A DNA stretch of 64,000 nucleotides, taken from the NCBI GenBank assembly GCA_964014545.1, contig CAXGZX010000002.1, positions 521 to 64,520 of the forward strand. The letters run 5' to 3'. This DNA comes from an uncultured Candidatus Poseidoniales archaeon. GTDB taxonomy: Archaea > Thermoplasmatota > Poseidoniia > Poseidoniales > Poseidoniaceae. The translations under genes and the position numbers were made by a program. Shown here piece by piece: positions 50,381 to 64,000 of the stretch (its first letter is position 1; each line of letters starts with the position of its first letter). The notes under the pieces were generated by a model. The model ran no database searches, was not told the DNA's origin, and saw nothing but the letters and a program-made list of their open reading frames with translations.

Positions 50381-51628
50381 TCAGCAGGTGGTCATTGCGC
50401 CATCTTGAGTAGAATCTTGCTCATCCCAATCTAGTTCCCAACTATTGCTGGAGGTGTATGTTGATGTATCCCCTGCATAGAATTGGTTTACTACCTCAAG
50501 TTCAAATGTATAGCAACCTGCTTCACCGTAGAACTTATCTCTTTCAAGATATTGTGTTAAATCATTTTGTGCAGTACCAGGCAAGCCGAACCAGCCATCT
50601 ATTTCAACTGAACCTTGACCAATTTCTTGACTTGACCAAGATGCACTTAGTCCGTTTACAGTAATTGGAGGCATGTTATAGACTGGACTTGAACCTTCTT
50701 TGATTACTAGATTGAGCGTATAATCTGATACAACAGACAATACATCACTGGTTTCTAAGGAATGGTCGCCACCGTCCAATGATTGTTCTCCATTAGAGAA
50801 TAAACCAACAGCTGCATCAATAGCGATACCATCTGTCACCGATGTCGCACCTGTCCCTTGATTGGTTGTTTTTACAATCTTGAATATACTAATTGCAGAA
50901 TTTTGCGCTTCTCTAGTTAAAAATCTTGGTTCTATGTCAATAGAAGAAAATTGTCCATCTGAAGATTCAACTTCGAGTCTATACTGGGTAACCACATTTG
51001 CTAACCAACCATTACCCTGCACCAAATGTTCATAAGAATTTCCAGTAAAAACTTCATCAAGAGGCGCATAGAATGTTGCCCTGTCGTTGGATAATGATTT
51101 GCTACCTTCCCAAACTTCTTCGTCACCCGCAAAAATCTTAGCAGTTATTTCATTTGTACTACCTCTGACGACAAATGTGAAATCATTCTCATCCTCATCA
51201 ATAGACAATTCAGATATTACAATTGATGCATTGGTTGGGATAATCATTATCGCAGCATACGGCCCAACTGCTATTATGAAGGCTAAAGCAACAGAAATAC
51301 CAGTCTTGAGTCCTGAAACACCACCAGACATTCTTTGTGAGAAAAGGATTAACCCGATACCTAAGGCCAGAACAACCAAGACTACAGCAAAGCCAAACCC
51401 TCCGCCTTGGAGAGAAATTATAGCCCCAAGGACGATTATTACCCAGCCGACTAAATTTAGGATCAATGGAATGTCTGGACCAGCGTCTTGTGCTGTTGCT
51501 TTACTAGTGGCGACAACCGGCTTAGTTTTACTGAGCAAGGCAGCCGACTCAGGCTTTGATTCTGATTTCTTAGAACTCTTAGGTTCATCATTTGATGCGG
51601 TCTTTGCTTTATCAAGTAGTCCAGCCAT
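50381..51628 (-). CDS. Membrane protein with Lys/Ser-rich cytoplasmic N terminus and extracellular domain (function unknown)
   Basis: 415-aa ORF with three TM helices at about aa 55-130, followed by a beta-rich ectodomain. No motif recognised. Confidence 0.45.
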   Translation of the reverse strand: MAGLLDKAKTASNDEPKSSKKSESKPESAALLSKTKPVVATSKATAQDAGPDIPLILNLVGWVIIVLGAIISLQGGGFGFAVVLVVLALGIGLILFSQRMSGGVSGLKTGISVALAFIIAVGPYAAIMIIPTNASIVISELSIDEDENDFTFVVRGSTNEITAKIFAGDEEVWEGSKSLSNDRATFYAPLDEVFTGNSYEHLVQGNGWLANVVTQYRLEVESSDGQFSSIDIEPRFLTREAQNSAISIFKIVKTTNQGTGATSVTDGIAIDAAVGLFSNGEQSLDGGDHSLETSDVLSVVSDYTLNLVIKEGSSPVYNMPPITVNGLSASWSSQEIGQGSVEIDGWFGLPGTAQNDLTQYLERDKFYGEAGCYTFELEVVNQFYAGDTSTYTSSNSWELDWDEQDSTQDGAMTTC

Positions 51629-51721: not shown

Positions 51722-52672
51722 TCAAAGTCCGGGAGCAGCTTCTCGCCATTCCTCGTCTTCGTCGTCGACATTGATGAACCGACGACCAGCAACTGCAGCA
51801 GCAAGAGCAATCATAGAGAGAGCTGGGATTATTTCAAAGCCTGGCAGGTAAACTCCTCTTACGTAAATGGTAATCATCTGGGTTTCAGTAATACAGCCGC
51901 CTGTTGTACAAGCAAATTCGGACTCAGCATAGAAGTCTAGTACGTGGTAAGCATCTGTCCATCCTTGATTCTTTGGTGTTCTAACCTTAATCTCAACATT
52001 TGTTGGTGTTGGACCTGGATCTACGCCTTTCTTTACCGCAGGTAGAGTGACAGTAAATCCTGCATCTTCCAGTGACTTACGGTAAGTGTCAGTAATTCCC
52101 ACCTTCATGAAGTCATACTGGTTACCTAGATTGTAAACTTTGAACTCGAATATTTTGTCGGTTTTTGGCATCAGTTGAACGAATGGTTCGGTTGCTTCTA
52201 CTTGAACTAATGAATATTGCATGATGTTAACAATCATGTTGGTGTTTGAAGATGCTGAGTTTAGTGGAGGTACACCGTTTATTTCTTGGACTGTTGCTTG
52301 AACAGATAGCGTTCTTACATCCATTGTCATGTAAGGAGTTGCTCTAACTGATATTTGGAAATCTACTGATTCTCCAGCACCAACATACATGTCACCAGGA
52401 GCGGCTGTTGCCAAACCTTCTGCATTGACGTTGAGGCTAACTTTCTCTTGGTATGCTGTAGGGTTGGTTGCAGTACAGGTAGTAAATCCAGAGTAAGTTG
52501 AACCAGGTTTTACTTCTACGTTGATAGTAGATGGTGCACAGTTAACTGAAATAGCAGCTGTCGGGGTTGGGTTTTGAGCAGCCGCTGGAGCAGCAACTAC
52601 AAGCATGGAAAATAAGTACAATGTTACAAGAAACGAAGCGCGCTTTAAGTTGGTCACAATCTCACCTATCAT
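51722..52672 (-). CDS. Secreted surface protein with PGF-CTERM-like sorting/anchor signal
   Basis: Signal MIGEIVTNLKRASFLVTLYLFSMLVVAAPAAAQ, with GGGGGTGGG upstream of ATG 52672 (the ORF extends to 52729). C terminus YLPGFEIIPALSMIALAAAVAGRRF matches the PGF + hydrophobic + RR pattern, followed by an unusual acidic extension INVDDEDEEWREAAPGL. Confidence 0.55.
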   Translation of the reverse strand: MIGEIVTNLKRASFLVTLYLFSMLVVAAPAAAQNPTPTAAISVNCAPSTINVEVKPGSTYSGFTTCTATNPTAYQEKVSLNVNAEGLATAAPGDMYVGAGESVDFQISVRATPYMTMDVRTLSVQATVQEINGVPPLNSASSNTNMIVNIMQYSLVQVEATEPFVQLMPKTDKIFEFKVYNLGNQYDFMKVGITDTYRKSLEDAGFTVTLPAVKKGVDPGPTPTNVEIKVRTPKNQGWTDAYHVLDFYAESEFACTTGGCITETQMITIYVRGVYLPGFEIIPALSMIALAAAVAGRRFINVDDEDEEWREAAPGL

Positions 52673-52751
52673 GCTTCCCACCCCCGTGACCCTCATAACC
52701 ATTTTGGGAAGATGGGAGATAATTGCCATGAAAACGGCTATTGTGAAAAAG

Positions 52752-52825
52752 TGGGCCCGAAGGGATTTGAACCCTTGACCGCCCGGTTATGAGCCGGGTG
52801 CTCTAACCAACTAAGCTACAGGCCC
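52752..52825 (-). tRNA. tRNA with anticodon CAT (elongator tRNA-Met, or tRNA-Ile2 if C34 is agmatidinylated)
   Basis: The minus strand reads GGGCCTGTAGCTTAGTTGGTTAGAGCACCCGGCTCATAACCGGGCGGTCAAGGGTTCAAATCCCTTCGGGCCCA, 74 nt. It folds as a cloverleaf: 7-bp acceptor stem with one G-U, anticodon stem CCCGG/CCGGG with loop CTCATAA, and T arm AAGGG-TTCAAAT-CCCTT. CCA is not encoded. A T5 run follows the 3' end (52746-52750). The G1-C72 pair argues against an initiator. Confidence 0.9.
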
Positions 52826-52865: not shown

Positions 52866-54161
52866 CTAACTGAATTGGGATAGAGATGACTGGCTTGGCT
52901 TAATCCACTCTCTTACCACAGCTTCTGCTGCATCTCTGATTTCCTCGGGAACAAATACCATAGCTCGTTCATTTGGCAATGCTAAAGAACGAATCATAGC
53001 AGAATGTTCAGAAACGTCTCTACCGTCTTCTAATTTGATACCTTGCTCATACGGCATGTAACCACGCTTAGAAATTGTGGCATAAAGTACGTGGATTTCT
53101 GGGTCGTATCCATGTGATTGGATGAACTCTTCTAGACGTTGTTTTACTGCATCTACCATATTTATGTCCAGTGTGTTAATTCTCAACGACTTGTGGAAAC
53201 CTCGTCGTGACAGTAATTTATCAGCGTACAGTGACAAGATTGTATCCTCATGTTTTGCCCAATCTGATAGGGCTACTTTGATGTGAGAATCATTTAATTC
53301 AGCGTATTGTACTGGTGACAAGGATTCATTGACCAGCATTTGTTCCAACCTGTGATCTAGGCTTAACTCACCTTGTTCAGCCAAGACCTTAGCACGAGAC
53401 AACATATCAACCAAATAATTTTGAGTCAGCATGTTGACCTTGTGGAAGTAGACTTGATTGTACATGTGATATCTAGTCACTAGGTATGCTTCGACTGCTG
53501 GCAAGCCCCAAGTTTTGACATAAAAATGACCATTTTTGCCAACTCTTAGCGCCCTAAACACTCGGTCGATATCAAATCCACCAATTTGGGCACCTGTGTT
53601 TGCTTGGTCTCTAACTAGGTAATCCATTCGATCAACATCAAGTTGCGATGAAACTATTTCTTTCATGAACTGCGGAATTTCCACACCTTGGTAATCTGAC
53701 TTACCATCCATAAGGGCAAACAGGCGACCAAGTCTATCAGGACCTAGAACCTCATGAACCGCCTTGCCAATTTCGGTATCTGTTGATTCAATCAACAATC
53801 GACCCCAGTGCTCATGAGAATGAAATGTGGCAAAAACTTTCGGCGTTTCCAGAAGATGTGAATATGGCGGATGACCTATATCATGCAACATAGCAGCAAG
53901 TTGAACTAACTCCGCATCATTATCGTCAATGATACCCGGTTGAACATCTTGTAATAGTTGAGTTAATTTTCTTGCGAGGTAATAAGCACCTAGAGAATGT
54001 GAGAATCGATTGTGATTAGCCGCAGGAAATACGTATTCACAAGTCGATAATTGCTGAATAGAACGTAGCCTTTGGAATTCCTTAGTGTCAATAATCTTAG
54101 CGTGGTGTGGCGGCACAAGAATATCCTTGTGAATCTCGTCCCTTATCACCCGCTCTCGCAT
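52866..54161 (-). CDS. HD-domain phosphohydrolase (dNTP triphosphohydrolase/SAMHD1-like family)
   Basis: NRFSHSLGAYYLARKL and AAMLHDIGHPPYSHLLE (the H...HD...D metal site), plus SSQLDVDRMDYLVRD, typical of the HD dGTPase-like family. Confidence 0.8.
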   Translation of the reverse strand: MRERVIRDEIHKDILVPPHHAKIIDTKEFQRLRSIQQLSTCEYVFPAANHNRFSHSLGAYYLARKLTQLLQDVQPGIIDDNDAELVQLAAMLHDIGHPPYSHLLETPKVFATFHSHEHWGRLLIESTDTEIGKAVHEVLGPDRLGRLFALMDGKSDYQGVEIPQFMKEIVSSQLDVDRMDYLVRDQANTGAQIGGFDIDRVFRALRVGKNGHFYVKTWGLPAVEAYLVTRYHMYNQVYFHKVNMLTQNYLVDMLSRAKVLAEQGELSLDHRLEQMLVNESLSPVQYAELNDSHIKVALSDWAKHEDTILSLYADKLLSRRGFHKSLRINTLDINMVDAVKQRLEEFIQSHGYDPEIHVLYATISKRGYMPYEQGIKLEDGRDVSEHSAMIRSLALPNERAMVFVPEEIRDAAEAVVREWIKPSQSSLSQFS

Positions 54162-54262
54162 TCCATCCCCACAACACGCTCGCTTTACTGTTTAAAAAGG
54201 CGCTGCAAAGATAGGCAACTATCGTTAAACATGACTAAAAGACTGATTTGCTAGCACCAAGT

Positions 54263-56023
54263 ATGGCGGATGTTCTCAAGAGCATTATGAATAAAATTAC
54301 TGATGATGACCCAGCAACTAGAGGTCAACAACTTTGGGTGATGTTTACTCTAGCGATTTTCTTAGTCGCAATTTTGAATTATTACGCCATGGTTAGAGAA
54401 CCTGACATTGTAGATATGGATGAGTTGATTGAATACAAGAATGAAGTGGTCAAAGTCGAAGGAGAAATAATTTCATGGCGGGAAGACCCATGGAACTCAG
54501 GGGATTGGGAAACCCACGTCATTGTAACAGACGGTACTGCCGTGGTTGAGGCTCGTTGGAGCCGTCCTGCAGAAATACCACCAATTGGCACAAATGTGGT
54601 AATCACTGGCAAAGTTATGGAATATGAAGGTAATATTTACATGACTGCGGTAGGCTCAGGAGCAATGGACTGGGATGAAGATGACTTACCAGACATCGTC
54701 CAGTTATCTCTACTTGATGTCGCACTGGACCCAGAAAAATACGAAGGTGAAGTGATTTCCCTCACTGGATACATCGGAGAATCAATACCACCAGATGCAA
54801 TGTTTGTATCTGCTGATTTAAGGGACCATCCTTCTTACGGCAATGCTGAACATCAGGTCAAGTTAAGCATCAGGTCTAAGGTTGGAAGTTGGATTGAAAC
54901 CTCTTCCAAAGTACAAGTTACTGGAACAATATCATATAATCAACGAGACCTGAATTGGGTTATGTCTGTACAAGGTCCAGAAATCCTTGTTGACAGAAAC
55001 CACCCTGTTGACATTATTCGATTGAATTGGGGAGAAGAGGCCACATGGAGTTATCAGTCTGGCAACCTTGTCAATATTGCTGGCTATGTAATGGTTGGAG
55101 AAGAATGGAGTTTACGAGGCCCAGGTGGAGTAACAATTTGCCTTAAACCAAGTGGCATTGACCTTGCAGCTAATGAAAACGCCTCACTCAACAATGAATT
55201 TCGAGATATTCAAGGCAGGTTGATGTGGTCTGAAGCCGATTCTAGTTGGTGTATTGATGCAAGCGAAGGCACGCCCACTGGGAATTTGATAAATTCAGAA
55301 GATGTCGTTGATTTGTTATCATTACTTTCTGGAGATCCAATAAGATTGATTGACCAGCCTAACACTAGATACACTGTCAATGCATTTGTCAGATATGCCA
55401 TTGAGCCATCAGTTGAAGATGTCAGTGGCTGGCTAGTAGACAAGATTGATTATCGAGGACAGACAAAGATTTACGCAACTTTCCCAGCCCAAACTTCAAC
55501 TCAATGGATTGAGGCTGGTCAAGCAATTACTGCCAATGTATCAGTTACCTGGGATGACACCAATATGGCGATACGGCTAATGATCCACGATTATCAACTT
55601 GGCGACGTACCTGAGGCCAAAAATTTACTTTGGGATGAAGGTGCATCACAATGGGGATATTCTAGAAGCCAAATGGTAAATCTACCAGGCATTGCGGTTC
55701 AAGATGATGACGGTCAATGGTGGTTGCAAAGAGATGGCTCGAATCAAAGTATTAGACTATCACCTAATAACAACACTATCATCGGCACAGATAGTTATCA
55801 TAGCGGTTATTCACACGTTTGGAACGGTCGAATGATGGAAGTTGCAGACCCAGAAATGATTGCAACGGTTTACCATTTGATAAATGCCGACGTAGTTGAT
55901 ACTGATGGTGACGGTTTATCTGATAATTTAGAATCTCTGTACGGCACCAACCCGTACAATGTTGATACTGATGGCGATGGTGAAAACGATCGTGATGATA
56001 ACGACACATACCCCGACTATTGA
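54263..56023 (+). CDS. N-terminally anchored surface protein with multiple OB-fold-like modules and C-terminal TSP3 repeats
   Basis: TM anchor QLWVMFTLAIFLVAILNYYAMV. OB-like strand patterns (EVVKVEGEIISW..THVIVTDGTAVVEARW..IGTNVVITGKVMEYEGNIYM, GEVISLTGYIGES..VKLSIRS..KVQVTGTISY). C-terminal DTDGDGLSDNLE and DTDGDGENDRDD. ATG 54263 is preferred over TTG 54248. Confidence 0.5.
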   Translation: MADVLKSIMNKITDDDPATRGQQLWVMFTLAIFLVAILNYYAMVREPDIVDMDELIEYKNEVVKVEGEIISWREDPWNSGDWETHVIVTDGTAVVEARWSRPAEIPPIGTNVVITGKVMEYEGNIYMTAVGSGAMDWDEDDLPDIVQLSLLDVALDPEKYEGEVISLTGYIGESIPPDAMFVSADLRDHPSYGNAEHQVKLSIRSKVGSWIETSSKVQVTGTISYNQRDLNWVMSVQGPEILVDRNHPVDIIRLNWGEEATWSYQSGNLVNIAGYVMVGEEWSLRGPGGVTICLKPSGIDLAANENASLNNEFRDIQGRLMWSEADSSWCIDASEGTPTGNLINSEDVVDLLSLLSGDPIRLIDQPNTRYTVNAFVRYAIEPSVEDVSGWLVDKIDYRGQTKIYATFPAQTSTQWIEAGQAITANVSVTWDDTNMAIRLMIHDYQLGDVPEAKNLLWDEGASQWGYSRSQMVNLPGIAVQDDDGQWWLQRDGSNQSIRLSPNNNTIIGTDSYHSGYSHVWNGRMMEVADPEMIATVYHLINADVVDTDGDGLSDNLESLYGTNPYNVDTDGDGENDRDDNDTYPDY

Positions 56024-56032
56024 GGAATTTAG

Positions 56033-57535
56033 ATGTTGGAAGCGTATTTTCTTGACCTTGGATGGTTGCTCTTTGCGCTATTCTTTGGCGTAGCGATGGG
56101 CTCCCTAACTGGTCTTATACCGGGTTTTCACGTTAACAATGTTGCACTAATTTTACTCGCATTAGCCCCCGTGTTTTTGAGTTGGGGCATTCCATTATCT
56201 GCAGTTGCAGCCATTATTGTCTCCACCGGAACGGTTCATACTTTCTTGAATTATATCCCCTCTGCACTACTTGGTGCGCCTGATGGCGATACCGCGTTAT
56301 CATTGCTTCCCGGCCATAGAATGCTATTGTCTGGTAATGCACCCAGAGGTGTTGCTTGGTCTGCTAGAGGCTCGCAACTTGGTCTGTTTCTTTCTTTACC
56401 GCTTATCATTGTGGCTAGGATTGCCTTTGGTGATGAACTTGGATGGTATGATTATCTGAGAAATATCATTTTCTTTTTACTCCTAGCAATATCATTCTTA
56501 TTACTAGCAACTGAAACTACAAGACTTGATTGGCCAAAATGGATGAGAAAACTATCGAGAAATTTACTTGGCACAGATAGTAGATTTGCTGGATTCCTAG
56601 CCGCAACTGGTTTCTTTTTACTAGCAGGATTTTATGGCTGGGCAGTATTTAGCCTACCCGCCAGATCACCAGTTGGTATTCCAGATGCAAGTTTATTATT
56701 GCCAAGTCTTGCTGGATTATTCGGCATTGCTAATTTGTTGGACATCTACGCTACTACATCCCATATACCTCCACAAAATGAAGATTGGACACTACCACCC
56801 GCAAAGCCATTGTTTGTCCCTTGTTTTTGGTCAGGAGTAGCCGGCGCATCGATGGGAGTGTTACCTGGAATGACTGCCTCTCAAGCAACTGTACTGGTAA
56901 TGGGTGGCAGAAACCTCGCAGCAAAGGTACAGGGCAAGGAAGGTTATGGCATGGATTGGGAGACCCGTCGCCTAACTGAAATGACTGATGATGAACTACT
57001 AGAAATCGCCCTTGCTGAAGCGGAAGGAGGGGTTGAGGGACCTCAAACAAAACAAGATTTAGAAGTAATTGCAATTCTTTCTGCGGTCAACACAGCTGTT
57101 ACAGTCATGGTTCTAGGGTTCCTATACATAATTGGCAGATCCCGTTCAGGTGCCACACTAGCCTTGAAAATGATGTATCCAATTGACACTTGGTCATCGG
57201 CAGAACCAACTGCAGATTTTATTCGTTTGATGTCAATTACTGTAGCGGCTGGATTAATGGCAATGCCAATTATGCGAGTTGTTGGCAAAGGTATGCTAAG
57301 ATTACATGCTGCAATACCGCTACAGCAAATGGTAATGGGAGTAATATTGTTCGTTGCTGCACTGGTATGGTTTACTACTGGTTTTATTGGCATTGGAGTA
57401 CTGATTATCGGCACAATTCTTGGATTGATACCCCCAAGAGTTGGTATACGTAGAAGTCACGGTATGGGTATTATCATTGTACCAATTATGATTTACACTT
57501 TTTCCCAAGCACAAGATGCGTTCGGTTTCCTATGA
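56033..57535 (+). CDS. Polytopic membrane protein, TctA/DUF112-like permease (tentative)
   Basis: About 12 or more hydrophobic helices. Duplicated motif GSLTGLIPGFHVNNVALILL and GASMGVLPGMTASQATVLV resembles the G-x-x-PG signature of the TctA family. GAGGA lies 6 nt before the ATG. Confidence 0.45.
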   Translation: MLEAYFLDLGWLLFALFFGVAMGSLTGLIPGFHVNNVALILLALAPVFLSWGIPLSAVAAIIVSTGTVHTFLNYIPSALLGAPDGDTALSLLPGHRMLLSGNAPRGVAWSARGSQLGLFLSLPLIIVARIAFGDELGWYDYLRNIIFFLLLAISFLLLATETTRLDWPKWMRKLSRNLLGTDSRFAGFLAATGFFLLAGFYGWAVFSLPARSPVGIPDASLLLPSLAGLFGIANLLDIYATTSHIPPQNEDWTLPPAKPLFVPCFWSGVAGASMGVLPGMTASQATVLVMGGRNLAAKVQGKEGYGMDWETRRLTEMTDDELLEIALAEAEGGVEGPQTKQDLEVIAILSAVNTAVTVMVLGFLYIIGRSRSGATLALKMMYPIDTWSSAEPTADFIRLMSITVAAGLMAMPIMRVVGKGMLRLHAAIPLQQMVMGVILFVAALVWFTTGFIGIGVLIIGTILGLIPPRVGIRRSHGMGIIIVPIMIYTFSQAQDAFGFL

Positions 57536-57553: not shown

Positions 57554-60500
57554 ATGAATATTATGAACACCAAAAAATACCCAATAATTTTGATTACACT
57601 CATGCTTTGTTCGTACTTAGCACCTGTCCTAGATTCCCAAGAAATGGCCGAACCAAACAAACCATTTGAAACATCAAGTAGGTCATCTGCTTGTATCGGT
57701 GATATTTGTATCTCCGAGGCGTTAGTAAACGCATTTGGTTCGGAAACTGGTGCCGTTGGACCTGCAGATTGGACCAGCGGAGAATGGGTTGAATTATACA
57801 ACTCTGGAACCACCACAGTTGATCTTTCAAACTGGATTTTAGATGACCATTATGACCGACCATTGAGTATGACTACCAACCATGTAGTATCTCCAAGCGG
57901 AGCGACAAATATGGACATCTTAGCAGGAGATTACATTGTTCTTGCTCGCAACGGTGATGGCGGTTCATGTGGATTTTGCATGAAGAACTCCAATGGAATG
58001 GTCAATCTTAAAGACACTAGTGGTAATTTAGTGCACAGCATAACTTGGACAACATCTCCTAGTGAGGGTGTTAGTCTAATTGAGGACATAAGTGACCCTG
58101 CTGCCGATTGGATTGAATCAACCACACTTTCACCAGGAGAAAGTAACCAAGGTGGTACACCTACTGGCCCTGTTTATTTCCCAGGTGATTTGGTAGTCAA
58201 TGAAGTAATGGCTGATGCATACCCAAGTTACGATAATGGAACATGGCCTGACGGTGAATGGGTTGAAATTCACAATCAAGGCAACTCGCCAATCGACATG
58301 ACTGGATGGCATCTCAAAGATGCCGCTGGTAACACTGTAGAATTTAATCAAAATCATTTGGTTGGGTATACCGCTGACCCTAATTCGATGATTATCAATG
58401 CAGGAGAACTCAGAGTTATTGCCATTAATGGCTCGTCTAATAGTGGTGTGCTGAATAATGCCATTGAGACACTAAGCATCCATTGGCCAAACGGTAGTAT
58501 TGCTGATGAAGTAAACTGGAGTTCAAATGAGCCAGGTTTCAGCTTGTCCCGTACCCACGGAACTGATGGTATGTATACCTCGGCGTACCCAACAGTAAAT
58601 GCAACCAATATCGGCGAAATTAATACCCTAGCAACTATGTCTAGTGACCTAATCATTACTGAGTATCTTCCTTCAACCAACACAACTGGTAACTTCCCAG
58701 ATGGCAAGTGGATTGAAATCCACAATAATGGAACCTCCTCAATCAACCTCCTTGGCTGGAGCATCACCAACGGGAAAGGAGAAATCCTATATTTTGATCC
58801 TGGTACAATAATCTTCAATCAATCCCACTCTAGTACCACCGATATATCTCCTGATGAGCGAAGATTGGTTCAAATGTCTAATAATTTTGACCTCTATGAT
58901 TACTACGAACATTTAGTAATGAAAGATGATAATGGAAATATCGTTGATTCGGGATGGCATAGTAATTACTTTGGCGATAACGTATCAATGGTAAGAGATT
59001 TAGCAAATATTGGCGCTCCATGGCTGCCCTCAAATTGGCTGACTCCTGGACAACCTGAACCGGGTGATGAGCCATACTCAATGAAGGATTTACAATTTAG
59101 TGAAATCTTACCTGATGGTCTGGGACTGGACACACAATCATGGCCACTGGGAGAGTGGATTGAATTATACAACAATGATAGTGTTGCTGTTGATTTAACT
59201 GGTTGGAAATTGAAAGCCTCAAGCAGTCGAAGCTTCACTCTAGGAGCCTACAATTTCCCACTCCAACAAGATGCTATAATCCAACCTGCTGATGTAGCCT
59301 TAATAGCGCTGAATGGTACCAACTCATTCTATCTAAAACAAACATCTGACCTCATTACTCTAGTCGATGACAGTGCTGCAATTGTTGATTCTGTAGCTTG
59401 GGACGTATCTTCGGAAAACATCTCAATGATCCCGCCTAGCAGCAGTCATGCAGGTTATACAACCATGTCGGCATCTGGAATTGCTGGTTGGGTAGAGCCT
59501 GCTTGGGCTACACCAGGCGAGATAAATCCTGAGTGGCCACAATATATTGGCTCTAACGAAGTTATTGTCACTGAGTATATGGGCTGGTGTGATGACCTAG
59601 ACGGCACGGTAAATGATTGGATTGAGATCTATAATAATGGCACATCGGCAATCGATTTGCTAAGATGGCGCATTGATACAGCCACAAACCGTCATTTTAT
59701 TCTCGAAACTGGAGAATTAGACAATACTAATTCACTCAGCGTCATAGCAAATTCCTCTAAATCAACTGTTGTTGCCCCTGGAGAATATGCCCTTATTAGT
59801 CTACCATACCAATTCTTGTGGGCTACGGATTTACCTGAAATCTATAACCCAGATGGACTGGCCATCAGTGAATCTTCTGTTCACGGTGAAGGGTTAACTA
59901 CCATCACTTGTCAATCTTGGATTTCAGATAATGGAGTCGACTGGAGTGTAGCAGCTTATCCAACACCGGGTACCGAAAATGTTGTGTCAAGTGATTTCGC
60001 CACTGCTGGGGACATACTGCTAACTCGTGTCTCACCTTATGATAATGAATTTATTCAACTCAAAAATATCGGTCAAAATGATGCTTATCTAATGGATTGG
60101 CAAATTAGCATAAATGATGGTACAGTGTACGAGTGTGATATTGATTCAACTATGTTTTTCCCTTCGATGTCTAGTATCATTATCTCTGATAGTAACGCAA
60201 TGAATTCCTTCACTGGCCAAGGCATGACATTTATCGACGAGATTAATCCGGTATTCTTACAATTTAGCGACATTGGTTGTTCTGACTTGTATATCCCTGA
60301 CACTGGCGTGGTGATTACCATCTTGGACCCAAGTGGCAACCTATCTGATGCTTTCGTGTTTGATAGCGGACCTGCTAGTCATGCAGGATGGACCAGTGAA
60401 GCCATCTCAGTACCAACAAACAGTGTATCTGATGATGAATTCATCTACGTTAGAGGTGATGGTTGCAATAATCTACCTGACACAGATAGTGCTGATGATT

Positions 60501-62533
60501 GGAAATATTTGTGGTCAATAAGTGGATTACACAACACTCTTTGCTTGTCTACTGACTTTACTGAAGGAGAATCTATCGTAACCCCAATTGTTGGACCGCA
60601 AAATGGTTTATTGGAGTTGATTGAATGGATTGATGGCAGTCAAACAAGTCTGCAAATTCAACTATACCAAATGCAGGAAGCAAATCTCGTCCAAGCCTTG
60701 TTAGATGCCTTGAACAGAGGCGTCAATGTAGAATTGATGCTTGATCCAGGATGTTATAATTGTAATATTTGGTCTGAAACAGATTTGCAATACAAGAACG
60801 ATTATGCTTACACGCTAATTCAAGCGGGTGCGACTGTCTATGAATTTAACACTGATTCAAATGAACCATATTTGTACTTGCACAGTAAAGTAGTGGTAAG
60901 AGATTCAAACAGTATTTGGATGTCATCTGGAAATTGGAAACCTTCATCTGTTCCAGCGCCCGACGTTAGAGGCAATGTCGAATGGAGTGTTATCATTGAT
61001 AATGATGATTTAGCCCAAATGGTTGAACAACAATTCAATCTTGACAAAGAATTTGCTGAATTAATGGCGCTAAATGATTATGATCAATATCAATTCTATC
61101 CGCCAGGTACTATCGGTGGTGGCGGAGTTCAATCGGCTATCCAAACCAGTATTTCAGGAGAATTACTCACTTGCCCAACTAATTGTGTTACTAAGATTGT
61201 TGAATTCATAATGTCTGCTGAAGATGAGGTCTTACTTTCTCAACAGACTCTTGATGCTGACTGGGCGTATGGTTGGGGGGATGAAAACCCAATAATTACG
61301 GCTCTACATGATGTTGCAATGCAGGGAGTAGGTGTTCACTTAATCATCAACGGCGCATACCTTGATGATGACGACCAAGAAGTAGTTGACTTGTTCAACG
61401 AAATTTGGAATGGCACCGAGGGATTAGATGCTTCTGCTGTTGTTATGGGTGAAGACGATGATGTCGCTAAGTTACACAACAAAGGAATTATTGTCGATGG
61501 GGAAAGTGTACTAGTCTCCTCAATAAACATGGGTAGTTCTGCAATGAACCGTAACCGCGAGATGGGAGTAATCATTCATTCATCTGTTGTTACTCAATAT
61601 TACCTAGATGGATGGCATGCAGATTGGAATCGCCTAGACAATGTCACAGATACTGACCAAGATTCACTGACTGACAAATATGAAGTTGCTAATGGATTAA
61701 ACCGAACCAAGCGTACCATGCCTTCAGGAGTTACTGAAGATATGTTTGATTCAGACGGCGATGGCGTCAACAATACGGATGAGGAAAAACAAGGTAGCCA
61801 CCCAATGTTAGCAGATACTGATGGCGATTGTGCTATTGATTCCATAGAGATCACTTGGGCACAGAGAACAGCCCTCAACGCATCGGTTGCTAATGTGGCT
61901 ATTTACGATGCTCTAACCCTAGAAGACGCTGATGGCGACGGCATCAAAGATACCGACCAATATGGTTGCGACCTTTCATCTGGCAACTCGCCAACCGAGC
62001 CACAAGATGATGACAATGTTGACCCAGAAGCCGATGACGACATGGACACGATACCAAATAAGTTTGATTTGTGCCCAGATACTGAACCAGATGCATTGAC
62101 TGACTTTGATGGATGCTCAGCTGACCAATTGGCTGAACTGGCTGATGCTAGCGATGGCGAAAATGATGACACTGGTAAAAACACCATGTTGATTGTGATG
62201 ATAGTAGCAGCAATCTTTTCAATTGGGGCATTTATCATCCTAAAGCAGTTAGAAAGTAAGGCAATTGAGGCTAAAAATTTAGTTAGCCTTGAGGAGCAAG
62301 AAATGATGCTAGTAGAGAATTCAGAATCAGTTGATACTGAATCATGGGCAATGCCGGTTCTTGACGGTAGTGGTGAAAGCCAGACTACTGAGGAGAGCAG
62401 CGATTTCTCACCTGAAGAATTAGCCAAATTCCCCGGCTGGACAGAGGATGTAATCCAACGTTATCTCGACAACGGATGGACGATTGACCAACTTGCTGAA
62501 TACTATCAAGAACAACTCGAAGGCAACCAATAA
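57554..62533 (+). CDS. Giant surface enzyme: 6 lamin-tail-domain (LTD) modules + double-HKD phospholipase D-fold domain + TSP3 repeats + C-terminal TM anchor
   Basis: Signal KKYPIILITLMLCSYLAPVL. LTD signatures GEWVELYNSG..DLSNWIL, GEWVEIHNQG..DMTGWHL, GKWIEIHNNG..NLLGWSI, GEWIELYNND..DLTGWKL, NDWIEIYNNG..DLLRWRI, NEFIQLKNIG. HKD motifs LHSKVVVRDSNSIWMSSGNW (His codon 60881) and LHNKGIIVDGESVLVSSINM (His codon 61475). TSP3-like DSDGDGVNNTDE, DTDGDCAIDSIE, DADGDGIKDTDQ. TM helix MLIVMIVAAIFSIGAFIIL. Confidence 0.8.
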   Translation: MNIMNTKKYPIILITLMLCSYLAPVLDSQEMAEPNKPFETSSRSSACIGDICISEALVNAFGSETGAVGPADWTSGEWVELYNSGTTTVDLSNWILDDHYDRPLSMTTNHVVSPSGATNMDILAGDYIVLARNGDGGSCGFCMKNSNGMVNLKDTSGNLVHSITWTTSPSEGVSLIEDISDPAADWIESTTLSPGESNQGGTPTGPVYFPGDLVVNEVMADAYPSYDNGTWPDGEWVEIHNQGNSPIDMTGWHLKDAAGNTVEFNQNHLVGYTADPNSMIINAGELRVIAINGSSNSGVLNNAIETLSIHWPNGSIADEVNWSSNEPGFSLSRTHGTDGMYTSAYPTVNATNIGEINTLATMSSDLIITEYLPSTNTTGNFPDGKWIEIHNNGTSSINLLGWSITNGKGEILYFDPGTIIFNQSHSSTTDISPDERRLVQMSNNFDLYDYYEHLVMKDDNGNIVDSGWHSNYFGDNVSMVRDLANIGAPWLPSNWLTPGQPEPGDEPYSMKDLQFSEILPDGLGLDTQSWPLGEWIELYNNDSVAVDLTGWKLKASSSRSFTLGAYNFPLQQDAIIQPADVALIALNGTNSFYLKQTSDLITLVDDSAAIVDSVAWDVSSENISMIPPSSSHAGYTTMSASGIAGWVEPAWATPGEINPEWPQYIGSNEVIVTEYMGWCDDLDGTVNDWIEIYNNGTSAIDLLRWRIDTATNRHFILETGELDNTNSLSVIANSSKSTVVAPGEYALISLPYQFLWATDLPEIYNPDGLAISESSVHGEGLTTITCQSWISDNGVDWSVAAYPTPGTENVVSSDFATAGDILLTRVSPYDNEFIQLKNIGQNDAYLMDWQISINDGTVYECDIDSTMFFPSMSSIIISDSNAMNSFTGQGMTFIDEINPVFLQFSDIGCSDLYIPDTGVVITILDPSGNLSDAFVFDSGPASHAGWTSEAISVPTNSVSDDEFIYVRGDGCNNLPDTDSADDWKYLWSISGLHNTLCLSTDFTEGESIVTPIVGPQNGLLELIEWIDGSQTSLQIQLYQMQEANLVQALLDALNRGVNVELMLDPGCYNCNIWSETDLQYKNDYAYTLIQAGATVYEFNTDSNEPYLYLHSKVVVRDSNSIWMSSGNWKPSSVPAPDVRGNVEWSVIIDNDDLAQMVEQQFNLDKEFAELMALNDYDQYQFYPPGTIGGGGVQSAIQTSISGELLTCPTNCVTKIVEFIMSAEDEVLLSQQTLDADWAYGWGDENPIITALHDVAMQGVGVHLIINGAYLDDDDQEVVDLFNEIWNGTEGLDASAVVMGEDDDVAKLHNKGIIVDGESVLVSSINMGSSAMNRNREMGVIIHSSVVTQYYLDGWHADWNRLDNVTDTDQDSLTDKYEVANGLNRTKRTMPSGVTEDMFDSDGDGVNNTDEEKQGSHPMLADTDGDCAIDSIEITWAQRTALNASVANVAIYDALTLEDADGDGIKDTDQYGCDLSSGNSPTEPQDDDNVDPEADDDMDTIPNKFDLCPDTEPDALTDFDGCSADQLAELADASDGENDDTGKNTMLIVMIVAAIFSIGAFIILKQLESKAIEAKNLVSLEEQEMMLVENSESVDTESWAMPVLDGSGESQTTEESSDFSPEELAKFPGWTEDVIQRYLDNGWTIDQLAEYYQEQLEGNQ
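57704..60140 (+). repeat. Protein-level tandem array of six LTD modules of about 150 aa each (period about 450 nt)
   Basis: The W(V/I)E(L/I)(Y/H)N core recurs near nt 57779, 58251, 58701, 59151 and 59612, with a degenerate copy near 60045. The repeats are diverged at the DNA level. Confidence 0.7.
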
Positions 62534-62579
62534 CATCGTAAGATTGACAAAGGACTTAACATTAGCAGGACTGATAAAG

Positions 62580-63329
62580 ATGCGTTACTCTACCAGCAAT
62601 CCAGTTATGACTCAAAATTTTTGGTCCAATATTCAAGGACAAAACACTATGACTTTGCAAGGTACAATCGGCAAACTTGCCTACTTACTTGGCATCGTAA
62701 CCATAACGGCATTAATTTCAGCATATGTTGCACTAGATGCTCTAGCAGCAGGCAACGCATCTGTCATCAATGGTATGGCATGGGGTGGTCTACTAGGCGG
62801 AATTGTGGTAGCACTGATATTGATGTTTATGAGGCCGGAAAATCCTGGAGCATTGATGACTATTTACGCAGTATTGCAAGGAATGTTTGTTGGGGCAATA
62901 TCTCTGGTGTTTGAAGCATTTTACACCGGTATAATCATCCAAGCCGCATTTGGCACACTGTTTATCACTGGCGGAATGCTAATTATTTACTCATCTAGAG
63001 CCATTAGACCAACTCCAACTTTTAACAAAGTGATTGGCAGCCTAGTAGGGGCAATAATGATGCTGTATCTTGTCTCAATATTCTTTTCATTATTTACTGC
63101 CTATGAAGTACCATTTGTTCATTCCTCTGGCCCTATTGGAATTGGCTTCACTATATTCGTTCTTTCAATCGCTGCGCTAAGTTTGATTTCCGATTTTGGG
63201 TTCATTGAATCGGGGGTAAAGTGGCAAGCACCCAAGAATGCAGAATGGTGGGGCGCATTTGGTGTTTTAGTGACAATAATTTGGATCTACATCGAAATGA
63301 TTAGACTGCTGTCAAAAATTCGTGACTGA
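62580..63329 (+). CDS. Bax inhibitor-1-like (COG4760-type) integral membrane protein (tentative)
   Basis: MRYSTSNPVMTQNF N terminus resembles the SSNPV(F/L) start of BaxI_1-family proteins, followed by 6-7 TM helices. ATG 62580 is in frame within the longer ORF from 62484, which would overlap the upstream gene. Confidence 0.45.
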   Translation: MRYSTSNPVMTQNFWSNIQGQNTMTLQGTIGKLAYLLGIVTITALISAYVALDALAAGNASVINGMAWGGLLGGIVVALILMFMRPENPGALMTIYAVLQGMFVGAISLVFEAFYTGIIIQAAFGTLFITGGMLIIYSSRAIRPTPTFNKVIGSLVGAIMMLYLVSIFFSLFTAYEVPFVHSSGPIGIGFTIFVLSIAALSLISDFGFIESGVKWQAPKNAEWWGAFGVLVTIIWIYIEMIRLLSKIRD

Positions 63330-63400: not shown

Positions 63401-64000
63401 ATGACACGAAGCATTCCAGTAGTAGATTTTGCTGACTATCTGTCCGGTGACCAAGACCGACGTAATGACTTCATTGAACTTGTCGGCAATTCACTCAAGG
63501 ACATCGGATTCTTCGCTCTGAAAAACCACGGCATACCATTAGAGTTAATCCATCAATCATATGACAATGGGGATGCTTTTTTCGGACTTGACCAAAACAG
63601 TAAATCCAACTATTCACGCGCAGAAATTTCCCATCAACGTGGCTATACTGCTTTTGGTGTCGAGCATGCCAAAGATAATCCAGCACCTGATTTGAAAGAA
63701 TTCTGGCAAACTGGCCGTACTCACCAACCTGGTGAAAACCCCTCTTATCCAGCAAATGTTTGGCCTGATGCTGATGTGCCACAATTCAAGGAAACCATTG
63801 ACGACTTGTATAACAGAATGGAACATGTATCAAGAGAATTACTGGCTGCTTGTAGCATATATCTTGGCAAAGAAGCGAATTGGCTGCCCGAAATGACCGA
63901 TGATGGTAATACCATTATGCGTATTATTCACTACCCACCGCTTGGCGAAGATGTTCAAGAAGGCGCAGTCCGGTCAGCAGCTCACGAAGATATCAATTTC
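63401..64000 (+). CDS. 2-oxoglutarate/Fe(II)-dependent oxygenase (isopenicillin N synthase-like), 3' end truncated by the window edge
   Basis: Own translation from ATG 63401: MTRSIPVVDFADYLSG...DIGFFALKNHGIP...MRIIHYPPLGEDVQEGAVRSAAHEDINF. This shows the DIOX_N pattern and the start of the H-x-D iron motif. The frame stays open to nt 64000. The ORF is absent from the supplied track, presumably because it has no stop in the window. Confidence 0.8.
   Translation, partial: MTRSIPVVDFADYLSGDQDRRNDFIELVGNSLKDIGFFALKNHGIPLELIHQSYDNGDAFFGLDQNSKSNYSRAEISHQRGYTAFGVEHAKDNPAPDLKEFWQTGRTHQPGENPSYPANVWPDADVPQFKETIDDLYNRMEHVSRELLAACSIYLGKEANWLPEMTDDGNTIMRIIHYPPLGEDVQEGAVRSAAHEDINF

What the first reader, a model, noticed from the sequence alone, without database searches (positions are those of the whole stretch)
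57554..62533. Unrecognised architecture: six tandem lamin-tail domains on a single-chain double-HKD PLD fold, tethered by a C-terminal TM helix
Seen in sequence: a signal peptide is followed by six modules spaced about 150 aa apart. Each carries the LTD core, i.e. (G/N)(E/K/D)W(V/I)E(L/I)(Y/H)N.G followed by (V/I)(D/N)L.GW.L. The sixth copy is degenerate (NEFIQLKNIG..LMDWQI). Two HKD motifs lie about 200 aa apart (His codons at 60881 and 61475), giving a pseudo-dimeric PLD active site in one chain. They are followed by four TSP3-type repeats, a CPDT..DFDGC motif, a TM helix, and an acidic cytoplasmic tail of about 95 aa. Established knowledge: single LTDs attached to endonuclease/exonuclease/phosphatase-fold nucleases are common in bacteria. 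Six LTDs on a PLD fold in an archaeon is a combination I do not recognise.
Basis: partly seen in the sequence, partly recalled or inferred. Interest (0 to 1): 0.7.

Follow-up and report, generated by a model that had tools for sequence, protein, structure and literature searches.

The report
Surface-anchored LTD–PLD enzyme, likely nuclease
This is a real, intact gene for a large cell-surface enzyme of marine Group II archaea, with six lamin-tail modules in front of a two-HKD phosphodiesterase; the design is common and conserved in archaea rather than unique, has never been studied, and most likely digests extracellular DNA or RNA.

Summary
ORF 57554-62533 (+) encodes 1659 aa. It has a signal peptide, six Pfam LTD domains, and two PLDc_2 halves with HxKxxxxD at aa 1110 and 1308. 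These are followed by DxDxDG loops, a Cys pair, a TM helix and a 94-aa acidic tail.

The architecture is not unrecognised. At least 120 clusters of full-length orthologues (37-92% identity) exist in Poseidoniales. LTD(1-6) + double-HKD + C-terminal TM proteins also occur in Thermoplasmata, Lokiarchaeota, Syntropharchaeia and many sediment metagenomes. They carry only automatic names, and I found no paper on them.

By sequence, the HKD halves are closest to the PLD-family nucleases Nuc, NucT, Zucchini and DrmC. The fold matches every double-HKD enzyme equally well, including the PLD3/4 exonucleases.

The gene sits in a conserved same-strand cluster: a membrane-anchored protein predicted as tandem OB folds, a TctA-like permease, LTD-PLD, BaxI, a 2OG oxygenase and thymidine phosphorylase. 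Distant relatives lie next to TctA, to phosphate-uptake/5'-deoxynucleotidase-like/DeoC genes, or to rhomboid proteases.

Best reading (about 0.5): a surface-tethered extracellular nuclease that scavenges nucleic acids. Substrate is inferred, not shown.

The parts
57554..62533 (+). Complete CDS of the LTD6-PLD surface protein (1659 aa plus stop)
   Evidence: ORF list. Full-length homologues cover 97-100% of it.
57554..57634 (+). N-terminal signal peptide or signal anchor (aa 1 to about 27: MNIMNTKKYPIILITLMLCSYLAPVLD)
   Evidence: Sequence read directly: a KK n-region followed by a hydrophobic core. Cleavage was not tested.
57689..58084 (+). LTD 1 (aa 46-177)
   Evidence: Pfam LTD, 6 stretches. 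Family HMM envelope, 107.5 bits.
58175..58552 (+). LTD 2 (aa 208-333)
   Evidence: 142.8 bits.
58634..58996 (+). LTD 3 (aa 361-481)
   Evidence: 121.3 bits.
59075..59434 (+). LTD 4 (aa 508-627). This is the best Pfam stretch (aa 509-616).
   Evidence: 124.7 bits.
59531..59908 (+). LTD 5 (aa 660-785)
   Evidence: 70.7 bits.
59999..60385 (+). LTD 6 (aa 816-944), the most divergent copy (NEFIQLKN core)
   Evidence: 58.1 bits. Low to moderate pLDDT in the model.
60617..61039 (+). PLD half 1 (aa 1022-1162). HKD motif 1 is H1110-S-K1112-VVVR-D1117 with SSGN1127 (nt 60881-60904 for HxKxxxxD).
   Evidence: Pfam PLDc_2. Motif. H, K, D and N are invariant in 117 homologues. pLDDT above 90.
61199..61639 (+). 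PLD half 2 (aa 1216-1362). HKD motif 2 is H1308-N-K1310-GIIV-D1315 with SSIN1325 and N1334-R-E1336 (nt 61475-61498 for HxKxxxxD).
   Evidence: Aligns to Nuc 1byr residues 81-147.
61640..62179 (+). Membrane-proximal stalk (aa 1363-1542) with five invariant DxDxD(G) Ca-binding-type loops and conserved Cys residues (C1426/C1472, C1507/C1521)
   Evidence: Mostly confident model up to about aa 1470. Only weak calmodulin-like hits.
62180..62248 (+). C-terminal transmembrane helix (aa 1543-1565) with invariant G1558-A1559, followed by K-rich flank
   Evidence: Hydropathy up to 2.98. Conservation.
62249..62530 (+). Conserved acidic cytoplasmic tail (94 aa) ending in a two-fold GWTxDQLxxY repeat (aa 1627-1654)
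   Evidence: The motif is found in 118 of 120 family members and, among the 150 PLD-core representatives, only in the 10 closest.
54248..56023 (+). Co-directional upstream gene: a 591-aa membrane-anchored protein predicted as tandem OB folds, with a TSP3 repeat at its C-terminus
   Evidence: AF2 pLDDT 78. The Foldseek top 50 is almost entirely OB-fold nucleic-acid binders: HIN-dsDNA 5.6e-11, RPA70, POT1, LEF-3, SSB. Weak tRNA_anti-codon hit, E=0.006. Conserved synteny.
56033..57535 (+). Co-directional upstream gene: a TctA-family polytopic membrane protein (500 aa), ending 18 nt before the LTD-PLD start
   Evidence: Pfam TctA 1.5e-41. Same adjacency in MGII at 38-41% identity and in L025 and L039. 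Two genes away in Lokiarchaeota.
62484..63329 (+). Downstream gene: BaxI_1 family 7-TM protein. The true start is probably the ATG at about 62580.
   Evidence: Pfam BaxI_1 2.7e-61. Conserved position.
63401..64000 (+). Downstream gene, cut by the window end: a 2OG-Fe(II) oxygenase (DIOX_N). In syntenic loci it is followed by thymidine phosphorylase.

Best explanation
The gene encodes a conserved cell-surface enzyme of marine Group II archaea (Poseidoniales).

Topology (inferred from the sequence):
- The protein is exported by an N-terminal signal sequence and held in the membrane by a single C-terminal helix.
- The catalytic two-HKD PLD-fold domain therefore sits close to the membrane, on a Ca-loop/disulfide stalk.
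- The six LTD (Ig-like) modules project outward as a distal arm.
- A conserved 94-aa tail stays in the cytoplasm.

Catalysis (established for the superfamily, inferred here): the two HKD halves form one pseudo-dimeric active site, which cleaves a phosphodiester through a covalent phospho-histidine intermediate.

Substrate (inferred): most likely extracellular nucleic acid. The protein would then be a surface-tethered nuclease, with the LTD array capturing or holding the polymer. It would work together with the co-transcribed membrane-anchored tandem-OB-fold protein and the TctA-like permease, and would feed nucleotide/nucleoside salvage (thymidine phosphorylase lies downstream).
For: Architecture and intact catalytic residues.

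Sequence affinity of the HKD halves:
- With the family profile, the only significant PDB matches are PLD-family nucleases: Nuc 9e-13, NucT 5.9e-9 and Zucchini/MitoPLD 2.4e-8. A bacterial PLD follows at 3.5e-4, and PLD1/2 and PPK are non-significant (single sequence).
- NCBIfam ranks DrmC (78 bits) and NucT (40 bits) above cardiolipin synthases (28 and 26 bits), all below their cut-offs.
- PADLOC DrmC models reach up to 7e-25.

Fold: PLD3/PLD4, which are TM-anchored single-chain double-HKD 5' exonucleases, are among the best matches at E about 1e-19.

Precedent for LTD on surface-bound nucleases:
- ExeM has a signal peptide, an LTD, OB folds, an EEP nuclease domain and a C-terminal TM anchor. 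Deleting its LTD lowers activity in vitro (PMC6085458).
- Hvo_1477 combines an LTD with a thermonuclease domain and is needed for growth on eDNA as a phosphorus source (PMC3929857; PMC5118699).
- An LTD-bearing nuclease occurs in DNA-degrading Izemoplasmatales (PMC8289736).

Gene context:
- The same-strand cluster OB-fold protein, TctA, LTD-PLD, BaxI, 2OG oxygenase, thymidine phosphorylase is conserved down to 38% identity.
- In the Lokiarchaeota locus, LTD-PLD is followed by two TM-anchored proteins with sub-threshold OB-fold hits, then TctA, with DeoC nearby.
- In another lineage, LTD-PLD sits next to PHO4, PhoU, an HD_3 protein with a YfbR-like (5'-deoxynucleotidase family) hit, and DeoC.
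Against: - No assay exists; the substrate is inferred.
- The fold search does not discriminate. Phospholipases (S. plymuthica PLD, PLD1/2, Streptomyces-type PLD) and vaccinia F13 score as well as PLD3/4.
- The similarity to Nuc, NucT and DrmC may partly reflect the shared minimal size of each half.
- The protein is extremely acidic (260 D+E against 57 K+R; PLD core net -42; OB protein net -60), which is unfavourable for polyanion binding unless divalent cations bridge. All secreted proteins in this window are similarly acidic.
- Pfam does not recognise the OB folds above threshold.
- Homology between the MGII and Lokiarchaeota OB proteins is not significant.
- Most distant LTD-PLD loci show no nucleic-acid or phosphate genes, and TctA is adjacent in only 2 of 80 metagenome loci.
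- Strong synteny within MGII could be genome conservation rather than functional linkage.
Confidence: 0.5

Rival explanations
1. It is an extracellular phospholipase D or transphosphatidylase. The membrane-proximal PLD domain would cleave or exchange head groups of phospholipids. The lipids could come from particles, algal or bacterial membranes and vesicles held by the LTD arm, or from the cell's own outer leaflet.
For: Pfam places it in PLDc_2/PLDc. The best Foldseek hit is a bacterial phospholipase D (7e0m), and PLD1/2 and Streptomyces-type PLDs score about 1e-16. Automatic annotations read 'cardiolipin synthase-like'. The catalytic domain is predicted to sit near the membrane (topology). 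LTDs have been proposed to mediate membrane association (Mans et al. 2004, as cited in PMC6085458).
Against: At the sequence level the halves match nucleases, not lipid enzymes. Cls models score 26-28 bits against cut-offs of 281-290. PLD1/2 are non-significant with the family profile. No lipid-metabolism gene is conserved in the cluster, whereas OB-fold, thymidine phosphorylase, DeoC, PHO4/PhoU and an HD_3 (YfbR-like family) gene recur. A biosynthetic cardiolipin synthase would not need six extracellular Ig-like modules.
Confidence: 0.2
2. It is a phosphodiesterase for another extracellular phosphodiester polymer or small diester, such as teichoic-acid-like or phosphoglycan polymers, glycerophosphodiesters or polyphosphate. 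It would serve phosphorus acquisition without being a nuclease.
For: The HKD chemistry is generic for phosphodiesters and phosphoanhydrides, and there are weak PPK C-domain hits. One relative lies next to PHO4/PhoU phosphate-uptake genes. Ig-like and PKD/CARDB modules are typical of polymer-binding surface enzymes.
Against: Nothing points to a specific alternative substrate. The OB-fold, thymidine phosphorylase, DeoC and HD_3 (YfbR-like family) neighbours point specifically to deoxynucleotide chemistry.
Confidence: 0.12
3. It is mainly a structural or adhesive envelope protein. The LTD array would be the functional part, and the PLD fold a binding module rather than an enzyme, as in vaccinia F13.
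For: The protein is large, acidic and rich in repeats, like other giant surface proteins in the window. F13, an envelope-forming PLD-fold protein, is among the structural matches.
Against: Every catalytic residue of both HKD motifs (H, K, D, N and the supporting E/D) is invariant in 117 homologues at 37-92% identity. H, K, D and N are also invariant across distant non-MGII relatives. That argues for retained catalysis.
Confidence: 0.05

Closest known systems
ExeM / Xds (Shewanella, Vibrio): LTD-bearing, membrane-anchored extracellular nucleases
   Same: Signal peptide, N-terminal LTD, a nuclease domain and a C-terminal TM anchor (PMC6085458). An OB-fold component is present in both, inside ExeM and as a separate neighbouring gene here. 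ExeM carries a putative rhombosortase processing site, although removing the rhombosortase or mutating the site had little effect; many distant LTD-PLD genes are followed directly by a rhomboid gene.
   Different: The catalytic domain is EEP-fold and metal-dependent in ExeM, and HKD/PLD-fold here. ExeM has one LTD, this protein has six. The anchor here is followed by a 94-aa conserved cytoplasmic tail rather than a short basic stretch. This protein is archaeal. No rhomboid gene lies in the MGII cluster.
Nuc (Salmonella pKM101, 1BYR) and NucT (Helicobacter pylori, 6EHI): secreted PLD-family nucleases
   Same: They are the best sequence matches in the PDB for both halves. The HxK(x)4D(x)6(G/S)SxN motif and the downstream Glu are shared. 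From my own knowledge, both act outside the cytoplasm, and NucT serves DNA uptake and purine salvage.
   Different: Nuc and NucT are single-HKD proteins of about 155-180 aa that homodimerise. Here two halves are fused in one chain of about 350 aa and embedded in a 1659-aa multidomain protein. Scores fall far below the NucT equivalog cut-offs (40 against 297 bits).
PLD3 / PLD4: mammalian endolysosomal 5' exonucleases
   Same: Single-chain double-HKD fold, a single-pass membrane anchor and a catalytic domain on the non-cytoplasmic side. They are among the top structural matches (E about 1e-19, TM 0.62-0.67 normalised to the target).
   Different: Sequence identity is only 13-17%. PLD3/4 have an N-terminal (type II) anchor and no LTDs. 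The same fold search scores phospholipases equally well, so it gives no evidence of specific relatedness.
Hvo_1477 (Haloferax volcanii): surface lipoprotein for eDNA metabolism
   Same: An archaeal, surface-attached protein combining an LTD with a nuclease domain. Genetic evidence links it to use of eDNA as a phosphorus source (PMC3929857).
   Different: It has a staphylococcal-nuclease fold rather than PLD, one C-terminal LTD, a lipobox anchor, and is 327 aa long.
DISARM DrmC: PLD-like defence protein
   Same: It is the best NCBIfam and PADLOC profile match to the HKD halves.
   Different: DrmC is cytoplasmic, carries a single HKD, and sits inside a DISARM operon. The score is below the cut-off (78 against 133 bits), no DISARM genes are nearby, and this protein is exported.

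Membership tests
PLD / HKD superfamily (Pfam PLDc_2, PF13091) | Profile match above the gathering threshold | tested here: met
   118.9 bits against a cut-off of 27, two stretches.
PLD / HKD superfamily (Pfam PLDc_2, PF13091) | Two HxK(x)4D(x)6(G/S)SxN motifs forming one pseudo-dimeric site | tested here: met
   Motifs at aa 1110-1127 and 1308-1325. They are invariant in 117 homologues. The model shows two alpha/beta halves at pLDDT above 90, matching double-HKD structures.
Lamin tail domain (Pfam LTD, PF00932) | Profile match above the gathering threshold; number of copies | tested here: met
   230.7 bits against a cut-off of 34.3, six stretches. Envelopes listed.
Nuc/NucT-type PLD nucleases (NCBIfam NucT equivalogs) | Score above the equivalog cut-off | tested here: not met
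   40.2 bits against 297. It is the nearest solved relative by sequence but not a member of the equivalog.
Nuc/NucT-type PLD nucleases (NCBIfam NucT equivalogs) | Nuclease activity on DNA or RNA | not testable with these tools
   Requires an enzyme assay.
Bacterial PLD-type cardiolipin synthases (ClsA, ClsB) | Score above the equivalog cut-off; N-terminal TM helices with a catalytic domain on the biosynthetic side | tested here: not met
   28 and 25.7 bits against cut-offs of 290 and 281. The topology is exported with a C-terminal anchor.
DISARM DrmC | Score above the cut-off and DISARM gene neighbourhood (drmA, drmB and a methylase) | tested here: not met
   78 bits against 133. The neighbours are OB-fold, TctA, BaxI and HD genes.
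ExeM-like LTD-bearing surface nucleases (functional class, not a homology family) | Signal peptide, LTD, nuclease domain and C-terminal membrane anchor | tested here: inconclusive
   The signal peptide, LTDs and anchor are present. The catalytic domain has a different fold, and its nuclease activity is inferred only.
Bacterial TSP3 repeat (PF18884) | Profile match in the stalk region | tested here: not met
   No hit at E<=1 on this protein. DxDxDG loops are present and invariant. PF18884 is on record for 2 homologues.

The most novel reading that the evidence does not exclude
LTD-PLD is the hydrolytic arm of a previously undescribed archaeal module for capturing, degrading and importing nucleic acids. 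A membrane-anchored tandem-OB-fold receptor would hold DNA or RNA. The surface PLD nuclease would cut it next to the membrane. An orphan TctA-family permease, which lacks TctB and TctC here, would import the products (nucleotides or oligonucleotides, or even single strands, as in competence). The conserved cytoplasmic tail, or in other lineages the rhomboid protease encoded directly downstream, would control activity or release. Adjacency of TctA to LTD-PLD recurs in MGII, in Lokiarchaeota and in at least one further lineage.
Probability: 0.2. Interest if true: 0.75.

Novelty: new variant of a known kind. Interest (0 to 1): 0.5.

Why it matters
Marine Group II archaea are among the most abundant planktonic archaea, and none has been cultured. 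Their surface enzymes determine which dissolved polymers they consume. This gene is conserved across the order and abundant in ocean metagenomes; many of the 90%-identity clusters hold tens to hundreds of member sequences.

If it is an extracellular nuclease, it would give MGII a defined route into the dissolved DNA/RNA pool, a major marine phosphorus and nitrogen reservoir. It would also add a fourth catalytic fold (HKD/PLD) to the known LTD-tagged surface nucleases (EEP, SNase, metallo-beta-lactamase).

The wider LTD-PLD family is found in Thermoplasmata, Asgard archaea and Syntropharchaeia, often paired with rhomboid proteases. It is an uncharacterised and easily testable class of archaeal surface enzymes. 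The recurrent TctA neighbour offers a first functional lead for orphan archaeal TctA permeases.

Tried and rejected
1. The fold search was meant to tell nuclease from lipase. It returned all double-HKD enzymes at similar scores, so it does not discriminate.
2. Anti-phage defence reading (the DrmC hits). Rejected: scores are below the cut-off, the protein is exported and no DISARM neighbours are present.
3. Homology between the MGII OB-fold protein and the two Lokiarchaeota TM+OB proteins. hhalign was not significant. Only an analogous layout can be claimed.
4. Sequence-level identification of the OB folds. There are only sub-threshold tRNA_anti-codon hits and no PDB sequence hit.
5. TctA as a universal partner. 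It is adjacent in only 2 of 80 diverse metagenome loci, so the link is recurrent but lineage-restricted.
6. The cytoplasmic tail motif as a general module. It was not found in any other ORF of the window. Among the 150 PLD-core representatives it occurs only in the 10 closest to this protein.
7. Literature searches for LTD+PLD, for MGII+lamin tail and for Poseidoniales+phospholipase found nothing relevant.
8. The first attempt at a metagenome scan, with a heterogeneous alignment, failed. It was repeated with trimmed PLD cores.
A GTDB-wide taxonomic census was therefore not obtained.
Full report

Yes. The ORF at 57554..62533 (+) is intact and encodes 1659 aa. Pfam finds LTD (PF00932, E=3e-69, six stretches) and PLDc_2 (PF13091, E=1.7e-34, two stretches).

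A script on the translated sequence confirms the details:
- six LTD cores at aa 76, 234, 384, 533, 687 and 831, spaced 144-158 aa apart;
- HxKxxxxD at aa 1110 (codon 60881) and aa 1308 (codon 61475), exactly as stated;
- five DxDxD(G) loops between aa 1366 and 1498;
- C1507-PDT...DFDG-C1521;
- one strong hydrophobic helix at about aa 1543-1565;
- a 94-aa tail rich in Glu.

A family HMM gives LTD envelopes of aa 46-177, 208-333, 361-481, 508-627, 660-785 and 816-944. Copies 5 and 6 score lowest.

The 'TSP3' label is the only soft point. Pfam TSP3_bac does not hit this protein, although the loops are invariant in the family.

The organism is a Candidatus Poseidoniaceae (marine Group II) archaeon. 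MAG contigs encode the same protein at 90-96% identity.

**2. Is the architecture unusual?**

No. A search of 5.8 billion proteins returned 219 clusters. The 120 best are essentially full-length (1473-1688 aa apart from one 1225-aa fragment, 87-100% of the query covered, 37-92% identity). All carry LTD+PLDc_2. Their source names include 'lamin tail domain-containing protein [Candidatus Poseidoniaceae archaeon]', 'Cardiolipin synthase B [Euryarchaeota archaeon UBA443]' and 'cardiolipin synthase-like enzyme'.

Aligning 117 full-length homologues shows conservation along the whole length. Both HKD motifs are invariant (H1110, K1112, D1117, N1127; H1308, K1310, D1315, N1325, plus R1335 and E1336). 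So are the LTD cores, the paired cysteines, the Ca-type loops, G1558-A1559 in the TM helix, and a two-fold GWTxDQLxxY repeat at the end of the cytoplasmic tail.

An exhaustive HMMER search with the PLD core alone (aa 983-1366) found 2957 relatives at E<=1e-3. Among the best 150 cluster representatives, about 90 carry one to six LTDs by my HMM. Most also have an N-terminal hydrophobic segment and a C-terminal TM helix, and some have two complete PLD modules.

Pfam confirmed LTD in 39 of 44 non-MGII representatives, together with PKD and CARDB domains. Named members come from Thermoplasmata, Lokiarchaeota/Promethearchaeota and Syntropharchaeia.

So 'LTD(n) + double HKD + C-terminal anchor' is a widespread archaeal surface-protein design. 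The MGII branch is its six-LTD version with a special cytoplasmic tail: among those 150 representatives the tail motif occurs only in the 10 closest to this protein. No paper in the searchable library discusses it.

**3. What kind of PLD domain is it?**

An AlphaFold2 model of aa 860-1540, built from 47 sequences, has mean pLDDT 80.5, with the PLD core mostly above 90.

Foldseek against the PDB returns only double-HKD single-chain enzymes, with nearly equal scores:
- Serratia plymuthica PLD 7e0m at 1e-19;
- the PLD4/PLD3 5' exonucleases at 2.5e-19 to 4e-16;
- PLD1/2, vaccinia F13 and Streptomyces-type PLDs at 4e-17 to 1e-15.

The fold therefore confirms the pseudo-dimer but does not identify the substrate.

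Sequence profiles discriminate better. With the family profile, the significant PDB matches are Nuc (9e-13), NucT (5.9e-9), Zucchini/MitoPLD (2.4e-8 and 2.2e-6) and then 7e0m (3.5e-4). PLD1/2 and polyphosphate kinase are not significant. NCBIfam ranks DrmC (78 bits) and NucT (40 bits) above cardiolipin synthases (28 and 26 bits), all below their cut-offs. PADLOC gives DrmC models up to 7e-25.

The nearest characterised relatives are thus PLD-family nucleases. There is a caveat: these are also the minimal-size members of the superfamily, as are the two halves here.

**4. Gene context**

In the window the gene is the third of a tight same-strand series:
- 54248-56023: a 591-aa protein with no Pfam domain other than a C-terminal TSP3 repeat;
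- 56033-57535: a TctA family protein, 9 nt downstream of the first gene;
- 57554-62533: LTD-PLD, 18 nt further;
- a BaxI_1 gene;
- a 2OG-Fe(II) oxygenase cut by the window end.

An HD/dGTPase-like gene lies divergently upstream.

The same order holds in loci whose LTD-PLD is only 38-41% identical: HD (-), the ~580-aa protein, TctA, LTD-PLD, BaxI, 2OG oxygenase and then a Glycos_transf_3/PYNP_C gene. That last gene is a bona fide thymidine/pyrimidine-nucleoside phosphorylase (NF004490, 440 bits against a cut-off of 269).

The 591-aa protein has one N-terminal TM helix and is modelled (pLDDT 78) as a string of small beta-barrels. Its Foldseek matches are overwhelmingly OB-fold nucleic-acid binders: p204 HIN-dsDNA (5.6e-11), RPA70, POT1, baculovirus LEF-3, CST, Teb1 and SSB. 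Sequence support is weak: tRNA_anti-codon at E=0.006 for the first barrel and no PDB sequence hit.

**5. Contexts of distant relatives**

- Lokiarchaeota (L017): LTD-PLD, then two proteins built as Zn-ribbon + TM helix + OB-like barrels (sub-threshold tRNA_anti_2 4.6e-5 and tRNA_anti-codon 1.1e-3), then TctA, with a DeoC-family aldolase nearby.
- Two metagenome loci (L025, L039): TctA directly upstream, on the same strand, of an LTD(2)-PLD-PKD gene.
- Another lineage (L019): LTD-PLD divergently adjacent to PHO4, PhoU, an HD_3 protein with a YfbR-like (5'-deoxynucleotidase family) hit, and DeoC.
- Other loci are uninformative.

In a set of 80 diverse metagenome loci, unsupervised clustering of neighbour ORFs gave two recurrent families. 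One is a rhomboid protease directly downstream on the same strand. It occurs in 28 loci, and in 22 of the 53 loci with enough downstream sequence. The other is a convergent presenilin-type signal-peptide peptidase, in 19 loci. One independent four-HKD relative also has the rhomboid neighbour.

This resembles ExeM, whose C-terminal GlyGly-CTERM anchor carries a putative rhombosortase processing site, although in that study removing the rhombosortase or mutating the site had little effect (PMC6085458). It suggests that the C-terminal helix of LTD-PLD proteins is a substrate for intramembrane proteolysis in those lineages. The MGII cluster has BaxI at that position instead, and no rhomboid.

**6. 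Mechanism**

Shown:
- the domain order and intact catalytic residues;
- conservation along the whole length;
- the predicted fold;
- the conserved neighbourhood.

Inferred from sequence:
- Topology follows from the signal sequence, the single C-terminal helix and the Lys-rich flank after it.
- The PLD domain would sit near the membrane on a Ca-loop/disulfide stalk, with the six LTDs as the distal arm and the 94-aa tail in the cytoplasm.

Established for the superfamily: one histidine attacks the phosphodiester to form a phospho-enzyme, and the other protonates the leaving group.

Inferred substrate: nucleic acid. The grounds are:
- the sequence affinity to Nuc, NucT and Zucchini (section 3);
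- the repeated pairing of LTDs with surface nucleases in bacteria and archaea (ExeM; Hvo_1477; an Izemoplasmatales nuclease);
- the OB-fold, thymidine phosphorylase, DeoC, HD_3 (YfbR-like family) and phosphate-uptake neighbours (sections 4 and 5).

I put this at about 0.5.

The main counter-arguments are:
- there is no assay;
- the fold result does not discriminate;
- the protein is extremely acidic, though so are all exported proteins in this window;
- synteny within MGII could be conserved for reasons other than function.

**7. Comparison with known systems**

Functionally it most resembles ExeM/Xds-type LTD-bearing anchored nucleases, but with a different catalytic fold. Catalytically it resembles Nuc and NucT, which are single-HKD dimers whose equivalog cut-offs it does not reach. 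In topology and fold it resembles PLD3/4, at 13-17% identity and with the opposite anchor polarity. It is not a cardiolipin synthase or a DrmC by their curated cut-offs and contexts.

I therefore rate it a new variant of a known kind: an LTD-tagged surface phosphodiesterase or nuclease built on an HKD core.

**8. Verdict**

The family is abundant, conserved and automatically annotated, but functionally blank.

The most interesting residue is the recurrent module of OB-fold protein, TctA and LTD-PLD, together with the rhomboid pairing in other lineages. Together they make a concrete and testable hypothesis for extracellular nucleic-acid scavenging, or even uptake, in uncultured marine archaea.

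Noticed in passing
window 54248-56023 (+): A 591-aa protein with no Pfam domain apart from a C-terminal TSP3 repeat. It has one N-terminal TM helix and is modelled as about five tandem OB-fold barrels. Its structural matches are overwhelmingly nucleic-acid-binding OB proteins (HIN-200, RPA70, POT1, LEF-3, SSB). It is conserved across MGII, always two genes upstream of LTD-PLD.
   Followed up: yes
window 56033-57535 (+); L017:8538-9884; L025:7173-8792; L039:2966-4795: An orphan TctA-family membrane protein, with no TctB or TctC nearby, lies next to LTD-PLD genes in MGII, in Lokiarchaeota and in two sediment-type metagenome contigs. It is adjacent in only 2 of 80 diverse loci, so the link is recurrent but restricted to some lineages.
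   Followed up: partly
L051, L057-L059, L061, L062, L064, L066-L070, L072, L075, L078, L081, L083-L085, L087, L088, L090, L091, L094, L097, L100, L101, L021: In non-MGII archaeal loci the LTD-PLD gene is followed directly, on the same strand, by a rhomboid protease gene (28 loci). In 19 of these a convergent presenilin-type signal-peptide peptidase follows. This suggests intramembrane cleavage of the C-terminal anchor, analogous to rhombosortase and GlyGly-CTERM.
   Followed up: partly
L019:2953-7619: A 2314-aa LTD-PLD relative lies divergently next to a PHO4 phosphate transporter, two PhoU-type genes, an HD_3 protein with a YfbR-like (5'-deoxynucleotidase family) hit, and a DeoC-family aldolase.
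   Followed up: partly
window 62249-62530 (+), aa 1566-1659: The cytoplasmic tail ends in a conserved two-fold repeat, GWTxDQLxxY (PGWTEDVIQRYLDNGWTIDQLAEYYQEQ). It has no Pfam match, occurs in no other ORF of the window and, among the 150 PLD-core representatives, only in the 10 closest to this protein. The TM helix before it has invariant G1558-A1559. Its function is unknown.
   Followed up: partly
window 36452-46030 (-): A 3192-aa ORF combines an STT3/AglB-type oligosaccharyltransferase domain (aa 406-802) with a very large, highly acidic (net -281) region carrying CarboxypepD_reg and SdrD_B-like beta-sandwich domains. This is an unusually large OST fusion.
   Followed up: no
window 62484-63329 (+) and 63401-64000 (+); L012:14619-15950: A BaxI_1 7-TM gene and a 2OG-Fe(II) oxygenase (cut by the window end) follow LTD-PLD. 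In syntenic MGII loci the next gene is a bona fide thymidine/pyrimidine-nucleoside phosphorylase.
   Followed up: partly
window 48284-50014 (+), 50381-51628 (-), 51722-52729 (-): Three ORFs of 576, 415 and 335 aa have no Pfam match at E<=0.001. The 576-aa one is strongly acidic (net -64), like the other exported proteins. The 415- and 335-aa ORFs sit where 401-416 and 319-327 aa no-Pfam genes sit in distant MGII loci.
   Followed up: no
window 52751-52825 (-) and 52866-54161 (-): A tRNA-Met (CAT) gene and an HD/HD_assoc_2 protein with weak dGTP-triphosphohydrolase similarity lie divergently upstream of the cluster. The HD gene's position is conserved in distant MGII loci.
   Followed up: no
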